From assembly GCA_048940925.1 (NCBI GenBank), contig JBHLOC010000054.1, forward strand, positions 1 through 32,110: a DNA stretch of 32,110 nucleotides, in the 5' to 3' direction. This document shows, one piece after another, positions 1 to 30,456 of the stretch. Source of the DNA: Promethearchaeota archaeon (GTDB taxonomy: Archaea; Asgardarchaeota; Lokiarchaeia; Sigyniarchaeales; SOKP01). Positions within the stretch are counted from its first letter, which is position 1. Each line of letters starts with the position of its first letter. Below the pieces are notes generated by a model. The model was given only the letters and a program-made list of their open reading frames with translations, did not search any database and was not told where the DNA came from. The position numbers and the translations under genes were made by a program.

Positions 1-430
1 CGGTGCCAGAGGGTACATTTGAATTTCCTGAGCAGGAACCCATAGATGATCAAGAACAAGAACCAGAATTTGAGGATGTACCAGAGTGGGTTCCCCCAGA
101 AGATTTAGCGGGAGACAATGATCCTGAAATTCCTGTTCCAGAAGGTATTTTTGAGCCTGCTGAATCAGAACAAGAACCAGAATTTGAAGATATTCCAGAA
201 TGGGTACCCTCTGAAAAATTAGCGGGTGATTATATACCTGAGATTCAAGTGCCTGAAGAAACGTTTGAACCTGTAAAACCAGAATCAGAACCAATTGATG
301 ATCAAGAACTTGATTTAGATTCTGAATATGTACCAGATTGGGTTCCTCCAGAAGAGTTAGCGGGAGATAATATCCCAGAAATTTTAGTTCCAGAAGATAC
401 TTTTGAATTTCTTCAACCTGAGTTAGAATC
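1..430 (+). repeat. Intragenic imperfect tandem repeats (38-46 aa units, P[ED]WVPxExLAGDxxPEIxVPExxFE)
   Basis: Three recognisable copies plus a partial copy at the window edge; 'ttagcggg' recurs at ~106, ~220 and ~357. Confidence 0.85.
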
Positions 431-3257
431 CATATATGACGAAGTACAGGAAGATTTAAATTCAACAGAAGAAAAATGTGAGCAGGAAAATCATAATGAT
501 ATTGTTCAAAAATATCCGCATGAACATTCTTCTGATGTTCTTCAAAAACAAAATGACATTTTAATTATGGGAAATAGTTTCTATTCCAGTCATAATGACA
601 CTGACTCTTTTAGAGATTTTAAACCAAAAGAAGAGGGAAAAGATCAACAAAAACCAGAAAGAAAATTGCCAATAAAGACAAGAAAAACTCAAACTAATAA
701 AAAAAAATCAGGATCTGATAGAAATACTATAAATAAGCAAAAATCAGGTCAAAGAACCATTCTTGTTTTAAAACCAGAAATAAAGGAGAAGAAAACAGAG
801 AATAAAAATAAAGCGAAGCCTATAAAAAATGAAAAAGACGAAAAAGAGACTCAAAAAGAAAATGAGGAGGAGGTCCCGCAAGAACTTAGAGAAAGATATA
901 AACGTGAGACAGGAAAGAGAGCTATATATGCAGGTAAAAATACTAAAGGTTTTGATGAATGGCAAAAAATACAAAAGAAATCAGAAACAGTAAAAGAAAA
1001 TAAGGAAAAAAGAGAGTTAAAAGAAGATTGGGAGCTATTATTAGAAAAATGGATAAATGAGGCGAATGAAAAAGTAATTTCTAAAGAGATTAAGAAAAAG
1101 CTTTTAGAAAAAATTAGAAAATATAGGCGCCTAAAGGATTTAAGTAGAAGGCTCTTCTACTTGTTAAGAAAAGAAAATCTAACAGAAAAAGAGACTGATG
1201 AAATTGAAACTTTGATTCAGCAAATTAAGAATATGGAGCCGATTCGAGAAGAGATTTTTAATAACTTAAGAGCTTTTAAAAAGTTCTATGAAGAAAATAT
1301 AAAATGGTTTGAGTATCGAATTCAAGCCGAGAGAGAGAAATTTACAAAATTCCTTGCTGAAAAATTAGAAAAACTTAAAGAAAGTAATGAGCTAAGGGAT
1401 AATTCTTCTAATTGGAAAGATCTATTGAAAAGGGCTTTAGGCTCATCAAAAGAAATTGACAGTTATGAAAAAATCTTAGTTGTCAATATCTTGAAAAAAT
1501 CTGATTTAACTGATAAAGATATCAAAAATTTATCGCTAATATTAAGCAAACTTGAGACGAAGGTATTGGTTGACATTTTTGGAGAAACCTTCTATTTACA
1601 AACACAAAATTATGTGAGATGGGGTTGGGACTTCTATAGAAATATAAAAATGGAGATCTTACGAGATTATTTTTCTTTAATAAAGGAAAAATCAAAATTA
1701 TTAGAAATTAATAAATCCGAGAAAATAATCAAGAATAAATTAGATTTGTTAAGAAGTATTGTTGAAATAATATCTAATAATGAAGATTTATCAAACTTAA
1801 ATGATAAAGATATTAAATTTCTATTTTTATTATCAGAATTAATAGGTATAATTCTTGGGGATGGAAATATCCGAAGATATAGTTTTAGAATAGATTTGAA
1901 TAAGGAAGATGAAATAGATTATGTAAATTATGTTAGTAATTTGATTTATCAAGTTTTAGGTAAATTTCCTCAAAAAAGGGACAGGAGAGGTATAGATGAA
2001 GAACATGAAGGGAAGGGCATTAGACTTATAATTAATGGTAAAGGAATAATAGACTTATTGACTAGAATTGGACTTAAAAGAGGGGATAAAATTAAGAATG
2101 CTGCAAAGGCTCCTGAATGGATTTTAGAAAATAAAATTTTAATCCCATATATATTAAAAGGCTTATTTGATACTGATGGAAATATTGATATACATAAAAA
2201 ATGGAGGGCACTCATTTTAAGATTTGTTAGTGGTTCTCAAATCCTTATAAAGAATTTCAAGTTAATGTGTGAAATATTAGATATAAAAACTTCGAATATT
2301 AGACCAATTAAAATAAAAAGTAAAAAATACAATAAGGTGTATGACGCTTGGGTTGTTTCAATAGGCTCTAAAGAAGCTATTAAAAAATTTATTGAAATTG
2401 TCGAACCTAAGAAATTCTTGTATCGCAAAAAGTTAATAGCAATGTTATTATTTATCCTTAAAAATTCTGAAAGAAAAGAGATAATAGATGAGGAGAAAAA
2501 AAAGGCATTCCCGAAGAAAAAAAAAATAAATCAATTTACTAAAGAATATATGGATTTCCTTCAGAAAATGTTTAAAAAATACAATTGGAACATTAATAAT
2601 GATCTTATAGAAAATCTTATAAAAGAAGCCTTGACTCTTAGAACACACAATTATAATATTTTAATAGGAGAAAAGTTAAAGGAGCTTTTTGAAATGCTTG
2701 GAACTGTTAAATTGGTTGTCGATTTTTTTATGAATAAAGGAGAAAAGTTATCTTTTCAGACTGTTAAAAACCATATAAAAAAATTATTGAGTAGAGAAAA
2801 ATATATAAACATATTCAGTAGTTCTAAATATAATCCGTTAGAAATTTTAGGAGATTCTTTCTATGATAAATGGGAAATAAACAACTCTAGAATTATTATC
2901 GATAAAGATAAAAGAAAAATCAATCAATTTAACTCAATATTAAGAATTAAAATAGCTCTTGAAATTTTTAATTTTCTAAAAAAAAATATTGATCCTTATT
3001 CAGTTAAAAATAATTTGATTATAAACCATTTAAAAGAATTAATTGAAAAATCTCCTTATTTTGGAAGATTAAATTATCTTTTGAATGATATTGATTATGC
3101 CCCAATAGTAAAAAATTATTTTATACGTCTAATAATTGTTGTAAAAGAAATAATAAAAAGTCCCAATGAGACAGCTTTCAGCATAGGTAAGAAATCAAAT
3201 CTGAAGGCAGATACAGTTCAAGATATAATGAATAAATTAAAAAAAAAGGTTGATTAA
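1..3257 (+). CDS. Large multidomain protein (5' partial): acidic Pro/Glu repeats, K/E-rich helical region, double-motif LAGLIDADG (DOD-type) endonuclease domain, possible C-terminal HTH
   Basis: Frame is open from the window edge. LAGLIDADG motifs LSELIGIILGDGNI (~1830-1870) and ILKGLFDTDGNI (~2150-2186), with the typical intervening 'GLKRGDK...PEWI' and the downstream 'LCEILDIKTS...W.V.I.SKEAIKKFIEIVEP'. No Hint splicing blocks recognised. Confidence 0.85.
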   Translation, partial: VPEGTFEFPEQEPIDDQEQEPEFEDVPEWVPPEDLAGDNDPEIPVPEGIFEPAESEQEPEFEDIPEWVPSEKLAGDYIPEIQVPEETFEPVKPESEPIDDQELDLDSEYVPDWVPPEELAGDNIPEILVPEDTFEFLQPELESIYDEVQEDLNSTEEKCEQENHNDIVQKYPHEHSSDVLQKQNDILIMGNSFYSSHNDTDSFRDFKPKEEGKDQQKPERKLPIKTRKTQTNKKKSGSDRNTINKQKSGQRTILVLKPEIKEKKTENKNKAKPIKNEKDEKETQKENEEEVPQELRERYKRETGKRAIYAGKNTKGFDEWQKIQKKSETVKENKEKRELKEDWELLLEKWINEANEKVISKEIKKKLLEKIRKYRRLKDLSRRLFYLLRKENLTEKETDEIETLIQQIKNMEPIREEIFNNLRAFKKFYEENIKWFEYRIQAEREKFTKFLAEKLEKLKESNELRDNSSNWKDLLKRALGSSKEIDSYEKILVVNILKKSDLTDKDIKNLSLILSKLETKVLVDIFGETFYLQTQNYVRWGWDFYRNIKMEILRDYFSLIKEKSKLLEINKSEKIIKNKLDLLRSIVEIISNNEDLSNLNDKDIKFLFLLSELIGIILGDGNIRRYSFRIDLNKEDEIDYVNYVSNLIYQVLGKFPQKRDRRGIDEEHEGKGIRLIINGKGIIDLLTRIGLKRGDKIKNAAKAPEWILENKILIPYILKGLFDTDGNIDIHKKWRALILRFVSGSQILIKNFKLMCEILDIKTSNIRPIKIKSKKYNKVYDAWVVSIGSKEAIKKFIEIVEPKKFLYRKKLIAMLLFILKNSERKEIIDEEKKKAFPKKKKINQFTKEYMDFLQKMFKKYNWNINNDLIENLIKEALTLRTHNYNILIGEKLKELFEMLGTVKLVVDFFMNKGEKLSFQTVKNHIKKLLSREKYINIFSSSKYNPLEILGDSFYDKWEINNSRIIIDKDKRKINQFNSILRIKIALEIFNFLKKNIDPYSVKNNLIINHLKELIEKSPYFGRLNYLLNDIDYAPIVKNYFIRLIIVVKEIIKSPNETAFSIGKKSNLKADTVQDIMNKLKKKVD

Positions 3258-3931
3258 ATTTTTAAAGGCTCACCGCCTTGTTCTAAAATTTCTACTTTAA
3301 TATTTGGATCTTTTTTCTCTAGTAACTCTTTGAATTTGCTGAGATCCTTACCCCAATTTTGCCTTTATATATGACCTGTATATAAATTATGCATTGGAAT
3401 TGCAATCTTAGGTTTTACATCAATAATAGAATCAGTAGATTCGTCAAAATCCATTGTATAGGTTCCTCCGCACGGCATCATTGCGACTGTAATGTGTTTG
3501 CTTGCTAAATCTTTCATTTCTGGAATTCTTTCAGTGTCACCAGCATGATATACACTTTTATCTCCAGATCTTACAATAATCCCTGCCCATTCATTACTTT
3601 TAGGGTGATTTGGTTTTTTTATATTATATGCGGGGATTAGTTCAATTGAAAGATCCTTATAATCGAAAATTTCGCCAAATTTTAAGGGTTTTCCGTTAAA
3701 TTTGCTTAAATCACTTGAGATACTTGCTGGACCTATAACCACAGTATCGTCTTTAAATATTTTTTTGATACTTCCTGCATCAAAATGATCACCATGAGAG
3801 TGTGTTGAAACCACAACATCAGCTTTCTCTTCTCCTTTTTTAATTTGGTAAGGATCTAAATAAATCACATTCCCACCCTCTGTCTTTATCTTGAATGCGG
3901 CATGGCCTAACCATGTAATTTCCATAGTCAT
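3254..3931 (-). CDS. MBL-fold metallo-hydrolase (UPF0173/Lactamase_B_3-like); exons 3931-3388 and 3357-3254, 215 aa if spliced
   Basis: Motifs WLGHAAF, DPY, THSHGDHFD, YHAGDT, GGTYTM, PMH. The reading frame continues past the TAA at 3365-3367 as NWGKDLSKFKELLEKKDPNIKVEILEQGGEPLKI*, which resembles the usual MBL C-terminal helix-strand. Its stop (3254-3256) overlaps the stop of the convergent gene. Confidence 0.88.
3358..3387 (-). other. Putative 30-nt bulge-helix-bulge intron in a protein-coding gene
   Basis: mRNA reads AUUCCAA-UGCA-UAA-UUUAUAUA-CAGGUCA-UAUAUAAA-GGCA-AAA-UUGGGGU: 7-bp outer helix, two 3-nt bulges, 4-position central helix (3 Watson-Crick pairs + A.G) and an 8-bp inner helix. 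Cutting after the 2nd nt of each bulge restores the frame and removes the stop. Confidence 0.82.
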
Positions 3932-24627: not shown

Positions 24628-24764
24628 CCTAAATATGAGTAATCATTTAAAAAAATTTACGGTATTACTAATTTTTTTTCTATTATTTTCTTATATACTT
24701 TAAAAACCTAGCTCTTAAACAAAATATTTTAATTCTTTACAAAATATTAAAATATCATAAACAT

Positions 24765-24897
24765 GCGCTCTTAGTATAGTGGTCAGATTCTGTTGGATTT
24801 ACCGCTAAATGATTAATATGCCAGGTTGCCATAAACTAAGACTTCTTTATTGCTTTGCAAAAACCTGGCGACCCGGGTTCAATTCCCGGAGGGCGCA
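24765..24897 (+). tRNA. tRNA-Gly(GCC) with two introns (D-arm ~24787-24816; canonical 37/38 at 24832-24862); CCA not encoded
   Basis: Acceptor GCGCUCU/AGGGCGC + A73, anticodon stem CCAGG/CCUGG, GCC at 24828-24830, T arm CCGGG-UUCAAUU-CCCGG. Intron 2 forms a BHB (UUGC/GCAA helix; bulges CAU and AAA). Confidence 0.93.
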
Positions 24898-24937
24898 TAT
24901 TCTTCCTATCGATTAATTTAAAAAACTTTGAAAAAAA

Positions 24938-30356: not shown

Positions 30357-30382
30357 CTTTATTATTCGTTTGAATTTTATAG

Positions 30383-30456
30383 TGGGCCCGGCGCGATTTG
30401 AACGCACGACCTTCCGCACGTCAAGCGGACGTCATACCAGGCTAGACCACGGGCCC
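30383..30456 (-). tRNA. tRNA-Val(GAC), intron-less
   Basis: GGGCCCG/CGGGCCC acceptor + A73, anticodon arm UCCGC-UUGACGU-GCGGA, T arm GUGCG-UUCAAAU-CGCGC. Confidence 0.96.

What the first reader, a model, noticed from the sequence alone, without database searches (positions are those of the whole stretch)
3350..3400. Candidate bulge-helix-bulge (tRNA-type) intron in an Asgard protein-coding gene
Seen: the MBL gene stops 7 codons after its PMH motif, but the same frame continues to a plausible C-terminus. The minus-strand RNA parses as AUUCCAA|UGCA|UA^A|UUUAUAUA|CAGGUCA|UAUAUAAA|GGCA|AA^A|UUGGGGU. That is an outer helix of 7 bp (two G-U), a 4-position central helix with one A.G, two 3-nt bulges in the correct geometry, and a perfect 8-bp inner stem. 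Established: the archaeal splicing endonuclease EndA cuts after the 2nd nt of each BHB bulge and RtcB ligates; the crenarchaeal cbf5 pre-mRNA intron is the known protein-gene precedent. Applying that rule removes 3387-3358 (30 nt, including the TAA) and gives AUU CCA AUG CAU AAU UGG GGU = IPMHNWG, a 215-aa protein instead of 188 aa. Inference: mRNA splicing by the tRNA machinery in a Lokiarchaeon. Gene callers would miss it, and it may be more widespread. I cannot tell from here whether it has been reported.
Basis: partly seen in the sequence, partly recalled or inferred. Interest (0 to 1): 0.95.

Follow-up and report, generated by a model that had tools for sequence, protein, structure and literature searches.

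The report
tRNA-type mini-intron in Asgard hydrolase gene
A 30-base insert carrying a stop codon interrupts a healthy metal-hydrolase gene of an Asgard archaeon; it has the shape that the tRNA-splicing enzymes cut, so the messenger RNA is very probably spliced, which papers describe inside the coding part of only one archaeal gene (cbf5).

Summary
The minus-strand MBL-fold (UPF0173) hydrolase gene stops at TAA 3367-3365, but its frame runs on to 3254. Most orthologs listed are 211-219 aa. All ten full-length ones aligned read PMHN|WGKD with a 10-residue gap exactly opposite the insert.

The same 30-nt, stop-bearing insert sits at the same codon in 27 distinct variants, including 13 of 46 gene-bearing genomes of the window's genus and 2 of another genus. 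Its 9-bp inner stem has compensatory changes at 6 pairs. The downstream exon is under purifying selection (pN/pS 0.17).

In one variant only the canonical bulge-helix-bulge cut (after the second bulge base) rebuilds the conserved Asn codon. An independent assembly carries the insert, so it is not an assembly artefact. The genome encodes two EndA-domain proteins and RtcB.

My own genome scan found a second, perfect 30-nt BHB intron in an AIR-synthase-related gene, verified against orthologs. It also found likely ones in RNase HII, an EF-2-like gene, a small GTPase and a mutase-like gene.

No RNA data could be laid, so excision itself is inferred. This scan has noted the same class, and this same MBL intron, on other Asgard DNA. 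I found no published report. Verdict: a real BHB mRNA intron with about 0.85 confidence, and a new member of a known kind.

The parts
3388..3931 (-). Exon 1 of the UPF0173/MBL-fold hydrolase gene. It runs from ATG 3931-3929 through His181 (3391-3389) plus the first base of the Asn codon (3388).
   Evidence: ORF list and translation. Pfam PF13483 E=2.4e-27. Ortholog alignment A1.
3358..3387 (-). 30-nt BHB intron. It holds the third 5' bulge base, the 8-bp inner stem with a 7-nt loop, the 3' strand of the central helix (GGCA) and the first two 3' bulge bases. It contains the in-frame TAA at 3367-3365.
   Evidence: A 10-residue gap lies exactly here in intron-less orthologs. 27 same-site variants, all 30 nt, show compensatory stem changes. 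The site scores 18 of 19 BHB pairs.
3254..3357 (-). Exon 2. It supplies the last two bases of the Asn codon, then WGKDLSKFKELLEKKDPNIKVEILEQGGEPLKI and the stop at 3256-3254.
   Evidence: The frame is intact in all 27 intron-bearing variants and pN/pS is 0.17. Solved UPF0173 structures align across the junction to residue 204-212.
3394..3400 (-). 5' strand of the outer (exon-exon) helix h, AUUCCAA.
   Evidence: It pairs with 3356-3350. 92% of cells are paired over 27 variants.
3350..3356 (-). 3' strand of the outer helix h, UUGGGGU.
   Evidence: RNAalifold predicts this helix on its own.
3390..3393 (-). 5' strand of the central helix H (UGCA, exonic). It is followed by the 5' bulge U3389 A3388 ^ A3387.
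   Evidence: Three invariant pairs with 3363-3360. The fourth position is A.G here and A-U in 5 of 27 variants.
3357..3363 (-). 3' strand of the central helix (GGCA, 3363-3360) and the 3' bulge A3359 A3358 ^ A3357.
   Evidence: Sequence. The cut register is confirmed by variant L026, where only this register yields His-Asn-Trp.

Best explanation
The 30 nt at 3387-3358 (minus strand) are an archaeal bulge-helix-bulge intron inside the coding sequence of a UPF0173 MBL-fold hydrolase gene.

Inferred mechanism:
1. In the pre-mRNA, exon bases on both sides pair to form the outer helix.
2. Four exon bases (UGCA) pair with four intron bases (GGCA) to form the central helix, and the intron forms its own 8-9 bp hairpin.
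3. This presents two 3-nt bulges to the heteromeric splicing endonuclease EndA, which cuts after the second base of each bulge.
4. RtcB joins the exons and probably circularises the 30-mer.
5. The joint A|AU recreates the Asn codon, and the mRNA encodes the 215-aa protein that intron-less relatives encode directly.

Shown here: the insert, its exact boundaries, its structure and covariation, selection on exon 2, and the presence of the enzymes.

Inferred: the cutting and joining themselves, and any regulatory role of the stop-bearing unspliced form.
For: - Boundaries: all ten full-length orthologs aligned read PMHN|WGKD with a 10-aa gap exactly at the insert. 41 intron-less genes fetched as DNA show the same.
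- Recurrence: the same site, the same 30-nt length and an in-frame TAA, TAG or TGA occur in 27 distinct variants from genomes and metagenomes.
- Structure: 90.7% of cells are paired. The inner stem has double changes at 6 of 9 pairs. 0 of 500 shuffles reach the observed values, and slid controls reach only 24-55%.
- Cut register: in L026 the 30-nt registers give HHW, HNW or HIW, and only the BHB rule gives the conserved HNW. L023, L101 and L213 vary the bulge bases and still give HNW.
- Exon 2 is translated: pN/pS is 0.17 against 0.25 for the tail of exon 1. The insert shows no codon-position bias.
- Chance: about 3e-7 to 2e-6 per position for a motif this good at length 30.
- Enzymes: two EndA-domain ORFs and RtcB are in the genome. 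Asgard EndA is the broad-specificity (alpha-beta)2 type (PMC5829648).
- Cut rule: cleavage falls between bulge residues 2 and 3 (PMC2738675).
- Not an artefact: an independent study's contig spans the site without a gap.
- Other genes: the same genome has a perfect 30-nt BHB intron in an AIRS-related gene, where the junction A|CG rebuilds the Thr that is invariant in the intron-less orthologs aligned. Another, in RNase HII, rebuilds GIDEAG|RG.
Against: - There is no RNA-level evidence for this gene.
- The central helix has only three standard pairs plus A.G in the window and in most variants. It is a relaxed, not a strictly canonical, BHB.
- Thermodynamic folding does not itself predict the central helix.
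- The wobble base of the exonic Pro codon shows no extra constraint in intron-bearing genes (P=1.0).
- In most variants the junctions share AAUU, so the product alone cannot fix the cut.
Confidence: 0.85

Rival explanations
1. Translational bypass (ribosome hopping, as in phage T4 gene 60). The peptidyl-tRNA leaves the Asn codon AAU before the hairpin and re-pairs with the AAU 30 nt downstream, so the mRNA is never cut.
For: In the window and most variants an AAU precedes the hairpin and another AAU precedes UGG. A stable stem-loop starts right after the first AAU.
Against: - In L026 the first codon after His is AUU and the downstream one is CAU, so a matched hop would give PMH|WG and lose the conserved Asn.
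- In the AIRS-related gene a GUA-to-GUA hop would give HVS, not the invariant HVT. RNase HII has no matched codons at all.
- The stop is 7 codons after the take-off codon, not adjacent to it.
- This model does not explain the precise BHB geometry, which is rare by chance.
- From my own knowledge, not searched here: I know of no archaeal example.
Confidence: 0.04
2. The RNA is processed at this hairpin, but by something other than EndA and RtcB: another nuclease and ligase pair, or cuts shifted by a base or two within the shared AAUU.
For: The junction repeat leaves several registers open in most variants. The central helix is imperfect.
Against: L026 fixes the register to the BHB rule. Bulge size, helix lengths and polarity match the EndA substrate. 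The enzymes are present. From my own knowledge: I know of no other archaeal RNA cut-and-join system for such sites.
Confidence: 0.05
3. The gene is truncated or decaying. The 188-aa product is the real protein, or the gene is dead, and the downstream frame is not translated.
For: Gene callers report 186-192-aa proteins for these loci.
Against: - Exon 2 is intact to the same stop in 27 diverged variants, with pN/pS 0.17.
- Solved homologs show that this segment belongs to the fold.
- The insert length never varies.
Confidence: 0.03
4. Stop-codon read-through gives a protein with a 10-residue insertion.
For: The insert is a multiple of three. In the AIRS-related gene two relatives carry a stop-free insert that gene callers read through.
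Against: - Three different stop codons occur at the position.
- Substitutions follow stem pairing, not codon position.
- No intron-less ortholog has any residues there.
Confidence: 0.02
5. Assembly or sequencing artefact.
For: None found.
Against: A contig from a different study spans 3255-3931 with 3 substitutions and no gap. The insert recurs in dozens of unrelated assemblies.
Confidence: 0.01

Closest known systems
BHB intron in the cbf5 (pseudouridine synthase) pre-mRNA of Crenarchaeota: Desulfurococcales and Sulfolobales (Watanabe 2002; Yoshinari 2006; Yokobori 2009, PMC2738675)
   Same: - It is an intron inside a protein-coding sequence with a BHB-like, often relaxed, motif.
- Cuts are predicted between bulge residues 2 and 3.
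- The host has a hetero-oligomeric splicing endonuclease.
- Presence among relatives is patchy, implying gain and loss.
   Different: - A different gene (UPF0173 MBL-fold hydrolase) and a different phylum (Asgard/Promethearchaeota).
- A fixed 30-nt minimal size.
- It is one of several such introns in the same genome, whereas a 2020 paper (PMC7714728) still calls cbf5 the only coding-gene case.
- Splicing of cbf5 was shown by cDNA and in vitro cleavage. Here it is inferred.
Archaeal pre-tRNA introns with the hBHBh' motif, abundant in Asgard tRNA genes (bioRxiv 10.64898/2026.10.13.758758)
   Same: The architecture is the same: exon-exon outer helix, central helix, two 3-nt bulges and an intron hairpin. 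The presumed enzymes are also the same. This genome's tRNA genes are intron-rich by ARAGORN.
   Different: The host RNA is an mRNA, so the exon halves of the motif must also encode protein (Ile-Pro-Met-His / Asn-Trp-Gly). The joint must keep the reading frame.
BHB intron in the 5' UTR of Haloferax volcanii HVO_1309 mRNA (PMC7714728)
   Same: An mRNA is cut at a BHB by the splicing endonuclease.
   Different: That intron lies in the untranslated leader and does not interrupt the coding sequence. The host is a euryarchaeon with a homodimeric enzyme.
HAC1/XBP1 unconventional mRNA splicing in eukaryotes (IRE1 cut, RtcB or Trl1 ligation)
   Same: A small stem-loop-defined intron is removed from a coding mRNA by a protein endonuclease and a tRNA ligase, changing the C-terminus of the product. 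This comparison rests on my own knowledge.
   Different: The endonuclease is different (IRE1, not EndA/TSEN) and so is the motif. That system is stress-regulated. No regulation is shown here.

Membership tests
Archaeal BHB (tRNA-type) intron removed by EndA and RtcB | Two 3-nt bulges on opposite strands, each 3' of its strand of the central helix | tested here: met
   The bulges are UAA (3389-3387) and AAA (3359-3357). Both are 3 nt in all 27 variants, and the bases vary (CAA, UAU, UAG; AGA, ACA).
Archaeal BHB (tRNA-type) intron removed by EndA and RtcB | Central helix of 4 base pairs between the bulges | tested here: inconclusive
   There are three invariant standard pairs plus A.G in the window. 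A full 4 bp (A-U) occurs in 5 of 27 variants, and one variant has C.A at pair 3. It counts as a relaxed motif, which (alpha-beta)2 EndA is reported to accept (PMC5829648).
Archaeal BHB (tRNA-type) intron removed by EndA and RtcB | Flanking helices h (exon-exon) and h' (within the intron) | tested here: met
   h is 7 bp with 92% of cells paired. h' is 8-9 bp with 95% paired, and 6 pairs have compensatory changes. RNAalifold finds both helices.
Archaeal BHB (tRNA-type) intron removed by EndA and RtcB | Cutting after the second bulge base on each side yields the functional product | tested here: met
   The product equals the intron-less ortholog sequence. In L026 only this register gives His-Asn-Trp.
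Archaeal BHB (tRNA-type) intron removed by EndA and RtcB | Host encodes the splicing endonuclease and the RtcB ligase | tested here: met
   PF01974 hits two ORFs (102 and 70 bits). PF01139 hits once (556 bits). The alpha and beta assignment of the two EndA ORFs was not tested.
Archaeal BHB (tRNA-type) intron removed by EndA and RtcB | Spliced RNA and excised (circular) intron observed | not testable with these tools
   No RNA run was listed for this stretch. The single run search and the single read-laying run were both used.
UPF0173 / Lactamase_B_3 MBL-fold metal-dependent hydrolase (host gene) | Match to the family profile, with HxHxDH and downstream His motifs | tested here: met
   PF13483 E=2.4e-27 over profile positions 1-160. 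STHSHGDH and PMH are present. PDB UPF0173 proteins 3kl7 and 3x2z match at E 7e-24 and 2e-20.
Programmed translational bypass (T4 gene 60 type) | Matched take-off and landing codons that give the conserved product, with a stop directly after the take-off codon | tested here: not met
   Matched AAU codons exist in most variants but not in L026. The stop lies 7 codons downstream. The AIRS-related and RNase HII introns lack suitable matches.

The most novel reading that the evidence does not exclude
Lokiarchaeia-type Asgard archaea routinely splice ordinary protein-coding mRNAs with the tRNA machinery. A genome-wide population of minimal introns of about 30 nt sits in conserved motifs of metabolic and information-processing genes: here the MBL hydrolase, a PurM-like protein, RNase HII, an EF-2-like gene, a small GTPase and a mutase-like gene. 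These introns are gained and precisely lost many times. Because the introns examined carry stops, the spliced fraction may set the level of active protein.
Probability: 0.65. Interest if true: 0.9.

Novelty: new member of a known kind. Interest (0 to 1): 0.8.

Why it matters
Splicing of a coding mRNA by the tRNA endonuclease and ligase pair is documented in print for one archaeal gene, cbf5, in a different phylum. [quoted passage not shown]
- Interrupted protein genes and an mRNA cut-and-join step existed on the archaeal side of the eukaryote lineage.
- There is a compact, testable system (a 51-nt substrate, two enzymes) for studying how exon sequence can serve both coding and splice-site structure.
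- There is a systematic annotation error. Gene callers truncate these genes (186-192 aa instead of 215). Where the intron lacks a stop, they read it through as a false 10-residue insertion (P0123, P0163).

Tried and rejected
- RNA evidence: no RNA holder was listed for window:3255-3931.
- Pattern scans of genome contigs and metagenome contigs: 15 fixed bases were too few. After filtering for the MBL context they still added 8 new intron variants. They cannot be used to state how far the intron is distributed.
- ARAGORN -i on the genome, meant as a positive control for BHB geometry: its intron calls were too noisy. Only tRNA-Ser(CGA) on C19 could be read by hand, and it fits the geometry used here.
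- Genome scan for introns up to 120 nt with a 6-bp outer helix: 1250 sites against 1107 expected. The top long candidates are ordinary intergenic spacers holding a stop, a ribosome-binding site and a start codon. I rejected them as introns.
- Extra constraint on the Pro wobble base in intron-bearing genes: none (P=1.0). The His (CAT) and Asn (AAT) codons are more uniform in intron-bearing genes (P=0.011 and 0.035). Kinship inflates these values, so I give them little weight.
- Search for an intron-less database protein identical to a spliced intron-bearing gene, which could have been an RNA-derived contig: none above 96%.
- Rfam on 3200-3550: no match.
- Register shifted by one base (8-bp outer helix, as in the minimum-energy fold): it would remove 28 nt and break the frame, so I rejected it.

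Full report
**1. What is in the sequence**

On the minus strand an ORF runs from ATG 3931 to TAA 3367-3365. It gives 188 aa ending PMHNLYTGHI. Reading the TAA through, the same frame continues RQNWGKDLSKF...EPLKI to a stop at 3256-3254. The protein is a Lactamase_B_3 / UPF0173 MBL-fold hydrolase: PF13483 at E=2.4e-27, and PDB 3kl7 and 3x2z at E=7e-24 and 2e-20.

- Outer helix: 3400-3394 with 3356-3350, 7 bp including two G-U.
- Central helix: UGCA (3393-3390) with GGCA (3363-3360), three pairs plus A.G.
- Bulges: UAA (3389-3387) and AAA (3359-3357).
- Inner stem: a perfect 8 bp around a 7-nt loop.

ViennaRNA folds the 71-nt region at -15.4 kcal/mol (z=-3.1). It forms the outer and inner helices but leaves the central helix as a 6x6 internal loop.

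**2. The boundaries are set independently by orthologs**

A protein search returned 1820 relatives. Most of the 120 listed are 211-219 aa, from MAGs labelled Promethearchaeota, Lokiarchaeota, Hodarchaeota and the like. All ten full-length ones aligned read PMHN|WGKD, with a 10-residue gap exactly opposite LYTGHI*RQN. This is the predicted spliced product of 215 aa. In 41 intron-less genes fetched as DNA, His is followed directly by Asn (Ser in four) and Trp. Solved UPF0173 structures align straight through the junction to residue 204-212, so exon 2 is part of the fold.

**3. The insert recurs at the same site**

Seven called proteins of 186-192 aa end about six residues after PMHN. Their DNA shows the same arrangement each time: a 30-nt insert with an in-frame stop, then an intact WGKDL...LKI frame.

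A six-frame survey of 400 genomes of the phylum found the gene in 162. After inspecting the flagged matches, the insert is in 13 of the 46 gene-bearing genomes of the window's genus. It is also in two genomes of another genus of the same family. No interrupted copy appeared among the listed matches from other families.

With metagenome hits, 27 distinct variants were collected. All are 30 nt. The stop is TAA, TAG or, once, TGA.

**4. Structure is conserved, not peptide**

I scored the 51-column alignment A2 against the BHB structure.
- 90.7% of cells are paired.
- 8 pairs have changes on both sides.
- 0 of 500 shuffles reach any of the five measures.
- Sliding the partners drops pairing to 24-55%.
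- The intron's inner stem carries the signal: 9 pairs, none invariant, 6 with compensatory changes, 95% paired.
- The central helix has three invariant pairs. Its fourth position is A.G in most variants and A-U in five.

RNAalifold, run independently, recovers the outer and inner helices. Read as codons, the insert varies equally at all three positions (7/9/7). Exon 2 varies mostly at third positions. Exon 2 has pN/pS 0.17, and the last 60 codons of exon 1 have 0.25. So exon 2 is translated in these lineages, and the stop must be removed or passed.

**5. The cut register**

Most variants share AAUU at both junctions, so several 30-nt registers give the same product. Variant L026 breaks this tie. 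It reads CAU AUU at the 5' side and GCAAC AUU GG at the 3' side. The three 30-nt registers there give HHW, HNW or HIW. Only a cut after the second bulge base gives the conserved His-Asn-Trp. That is the rule stated for BHB introns (PMC2738675).

L023, L213 and L101 change the bulge bases and still yield HNW. A register shifted by one base, which the minimum-energy fold would suggest, removes 28 nt and breaks the frame.

**6. Chance and artefact**

At length 30, only 18 of 9.6 million positions in this 29.7% G+C genome reach 18 of 19 pairs. A locally shuffled genome gives 3.

An independently assembled contig from another study spans 3255-3931 with three substitutions and no gap. One substitution lies in the hairpin loop. 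Contig ends in the same data show an intron-less relative and a relative with a variant intron.

**7. Machinery**

The genome encodes two EndA-domain ORFs of about 205 and 209 aa, and one RtcB. Asgard archaea are reported to have the (alpha-beta)2 endonuclease with the L1 insert, which is linked to broad specificity for relaxed motifs (PMC5829648). By ARAGORN, many tRNA genes here carry introns.

**8. It is not alone in this genome**

My scan for BHB geometry combined with rescue of a reading frame gave 16 sites at length 30, against 5.7 expected (P=3e-4).

- AIR-synthase-related gene (G000:C30; the 5' exon ends at 66094; L271:1096-1125). This is a perfect 19/19 motif. Its insert carries TGA. 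Orthologs read GFH|VTRAAL with a 10-residue gap exactly there. The junction A|CG rebuilds the Thr found in every intron-less ortholog aligned. Two relatives carry the insert without a stop, and gene callers read it through.
- RNase HII (C40). Removing the 30 nt rebuilds GIDEAG|RG (PF01351 E=1e-43).
- Unchecked but plausible: an EF-2-like gene (C32), a small GTPase (C78) and a 31-nt case in a methylmalonyl-CoA-mutase-like gene (C71).

**9. History**

On a tree built from exon 1 only, intron presence is scattered. The best tree needs 19 changes, and well-supported branches force at least 6. The window's nearest relative (P0002, 93% identical) lacks the intron. Position, length and sequence are shared among the introns. 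One old gain followed by repeated exact losses, or spread by recombination between alleles, is therefore more likely than many separate gains. The tree cannot tell gain from loss. The flanking AATT repeat offers a DNA-level route to exact loss, but that is my inference.

**10. Rivals**

- Translational bypass fits the AAU...AAU pattern of most variants. It fails in L026 and in the AIRS-related and RNase HII genes, and it does not explain the BHB geometry.
- A truncated or dead gene is excluded by selection on exon 2.
- Read-through is unlikely given three different stop codons and structure-driven substitutions.
- An assembly artefact is excluded.

**11. Known or new**

In the searchable literature, a BHB intron inside an archaeal coding sequence is reported only for cbf5 of Crenarchaeota. 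A 2020 paper says so explicitly, and adds a 5' UTR case in Haloferax (PMC7714728). Six full-text searches found nothing on Asgard mRNA introns.

Earlier notes of this scan describe the same class in other Asgard genomes and in this genome, and this same MBL intron in two other genomes. I treated those notes as leads. My own scan independently recovered the EF-2-like and GTPase sites. I confirmed the same-site MBL introns in other genomes directly.

**12. Verdict**

[quoted passage not shown] Its removal by EndA and RtcB is very probable (0.85) but is not shown at the RNA level. It is a new member of a known kind, and part of what looks like a wider Asgard phenomenon.

Noticed in passing
G000:C30:66095-66124 (+) = L271:1096-1125: A second 30-nt BHB intron, perfect at 19/19 pairs, interrupts an AIR-synthase-related (PurM-like, PF00586/PF02769) gene with an in-frame TGA. 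Orthologs read GFH|VTRAAL with a 10-residue gap exactly there, and the junction A|CG rebuilds the conserved Thr.
   Followed up: yes
proteins P0123 and P0163 (relatives of the AIRS-related gene): These relatives carry the same-site insert without a stop codon. Gene callers read it through and report a false 10-residue insertion (GFHV-ISCKEDVWSI-SRAAL type). This is an annotation trap for stop-free mini-introns.
   Followed up: partly
G000:C40 minus strand, 5' exon ends at 190893 (L272): A 30-nt BHB-shaped insert with TAA lies in RNase HII. Removing it rebuilds the catalytic motif GIDEAG|RGSVLGP. Pfam PF01351 E=1e-43 on the read-through translation.
   Followed up: partly
G000:C32(-)27925; C78(-)59797; C71(+)54628: Three further frame-rescuing BHB candidates came from my scan. 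They are an EF-2-like gene (TDSD|DEEQERGITI, 30 nt), a small GTPase (WDIAGQ|PQF, 30 nt) and a methylmalonyl-CoA-mutase-like gene (FSGHG|TPEETN, 31 nt).
   Followed up: no
G000:C37:30790-30882 (-) = L008:1498-1596: A stand-alone relic of the MBL gene's exon 2 (MRDLNTFKELLEKKDPNIKVEILDQGGEPLKI, 84% identical) sits next to a glycogen phosphorylase gene. That is the neighbour of the intact MBL gene in relatives L001 and L003. The window's copy therefore seems to sit at a new locus, and the old locus kept only a piece that starts a few codons after the intron site.
   Followed up: partly
window 3-3257 (+): A 1084-aa ORF converges on the MBL gene. It has acidic tandem repeats at the N-terminus (PEGTFEFPEQEP...VPEWVPPEDLAGDN, about three copies), a Lys/Glu-rich middle, and two LAGLIDADG-like motifs (ILGDGNI, LFDTDGNI).
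   Followed up: no
window 24764-24898 (+): ARAGORN in intron mode calls a 135-nt intron-bearing tRNA with anticodon tta ('tRNA-Stop', 61-nt intron). The default run reports only tRNA-Val at 30382-30456. It is probably a mis-parsed multi-intron tRNA gene.
   Followed up: no
alignment A2 (27 intron variants): An in-frame stop is kept at the same codon of the intron in every variant, although its spelling changes (TAA, TAG, TGA). A-to-G changes opposite U keep the stem paired, so structure alone may explain this. Selection for a stop in the unspliced message is not excluded.
   Followed up: partly
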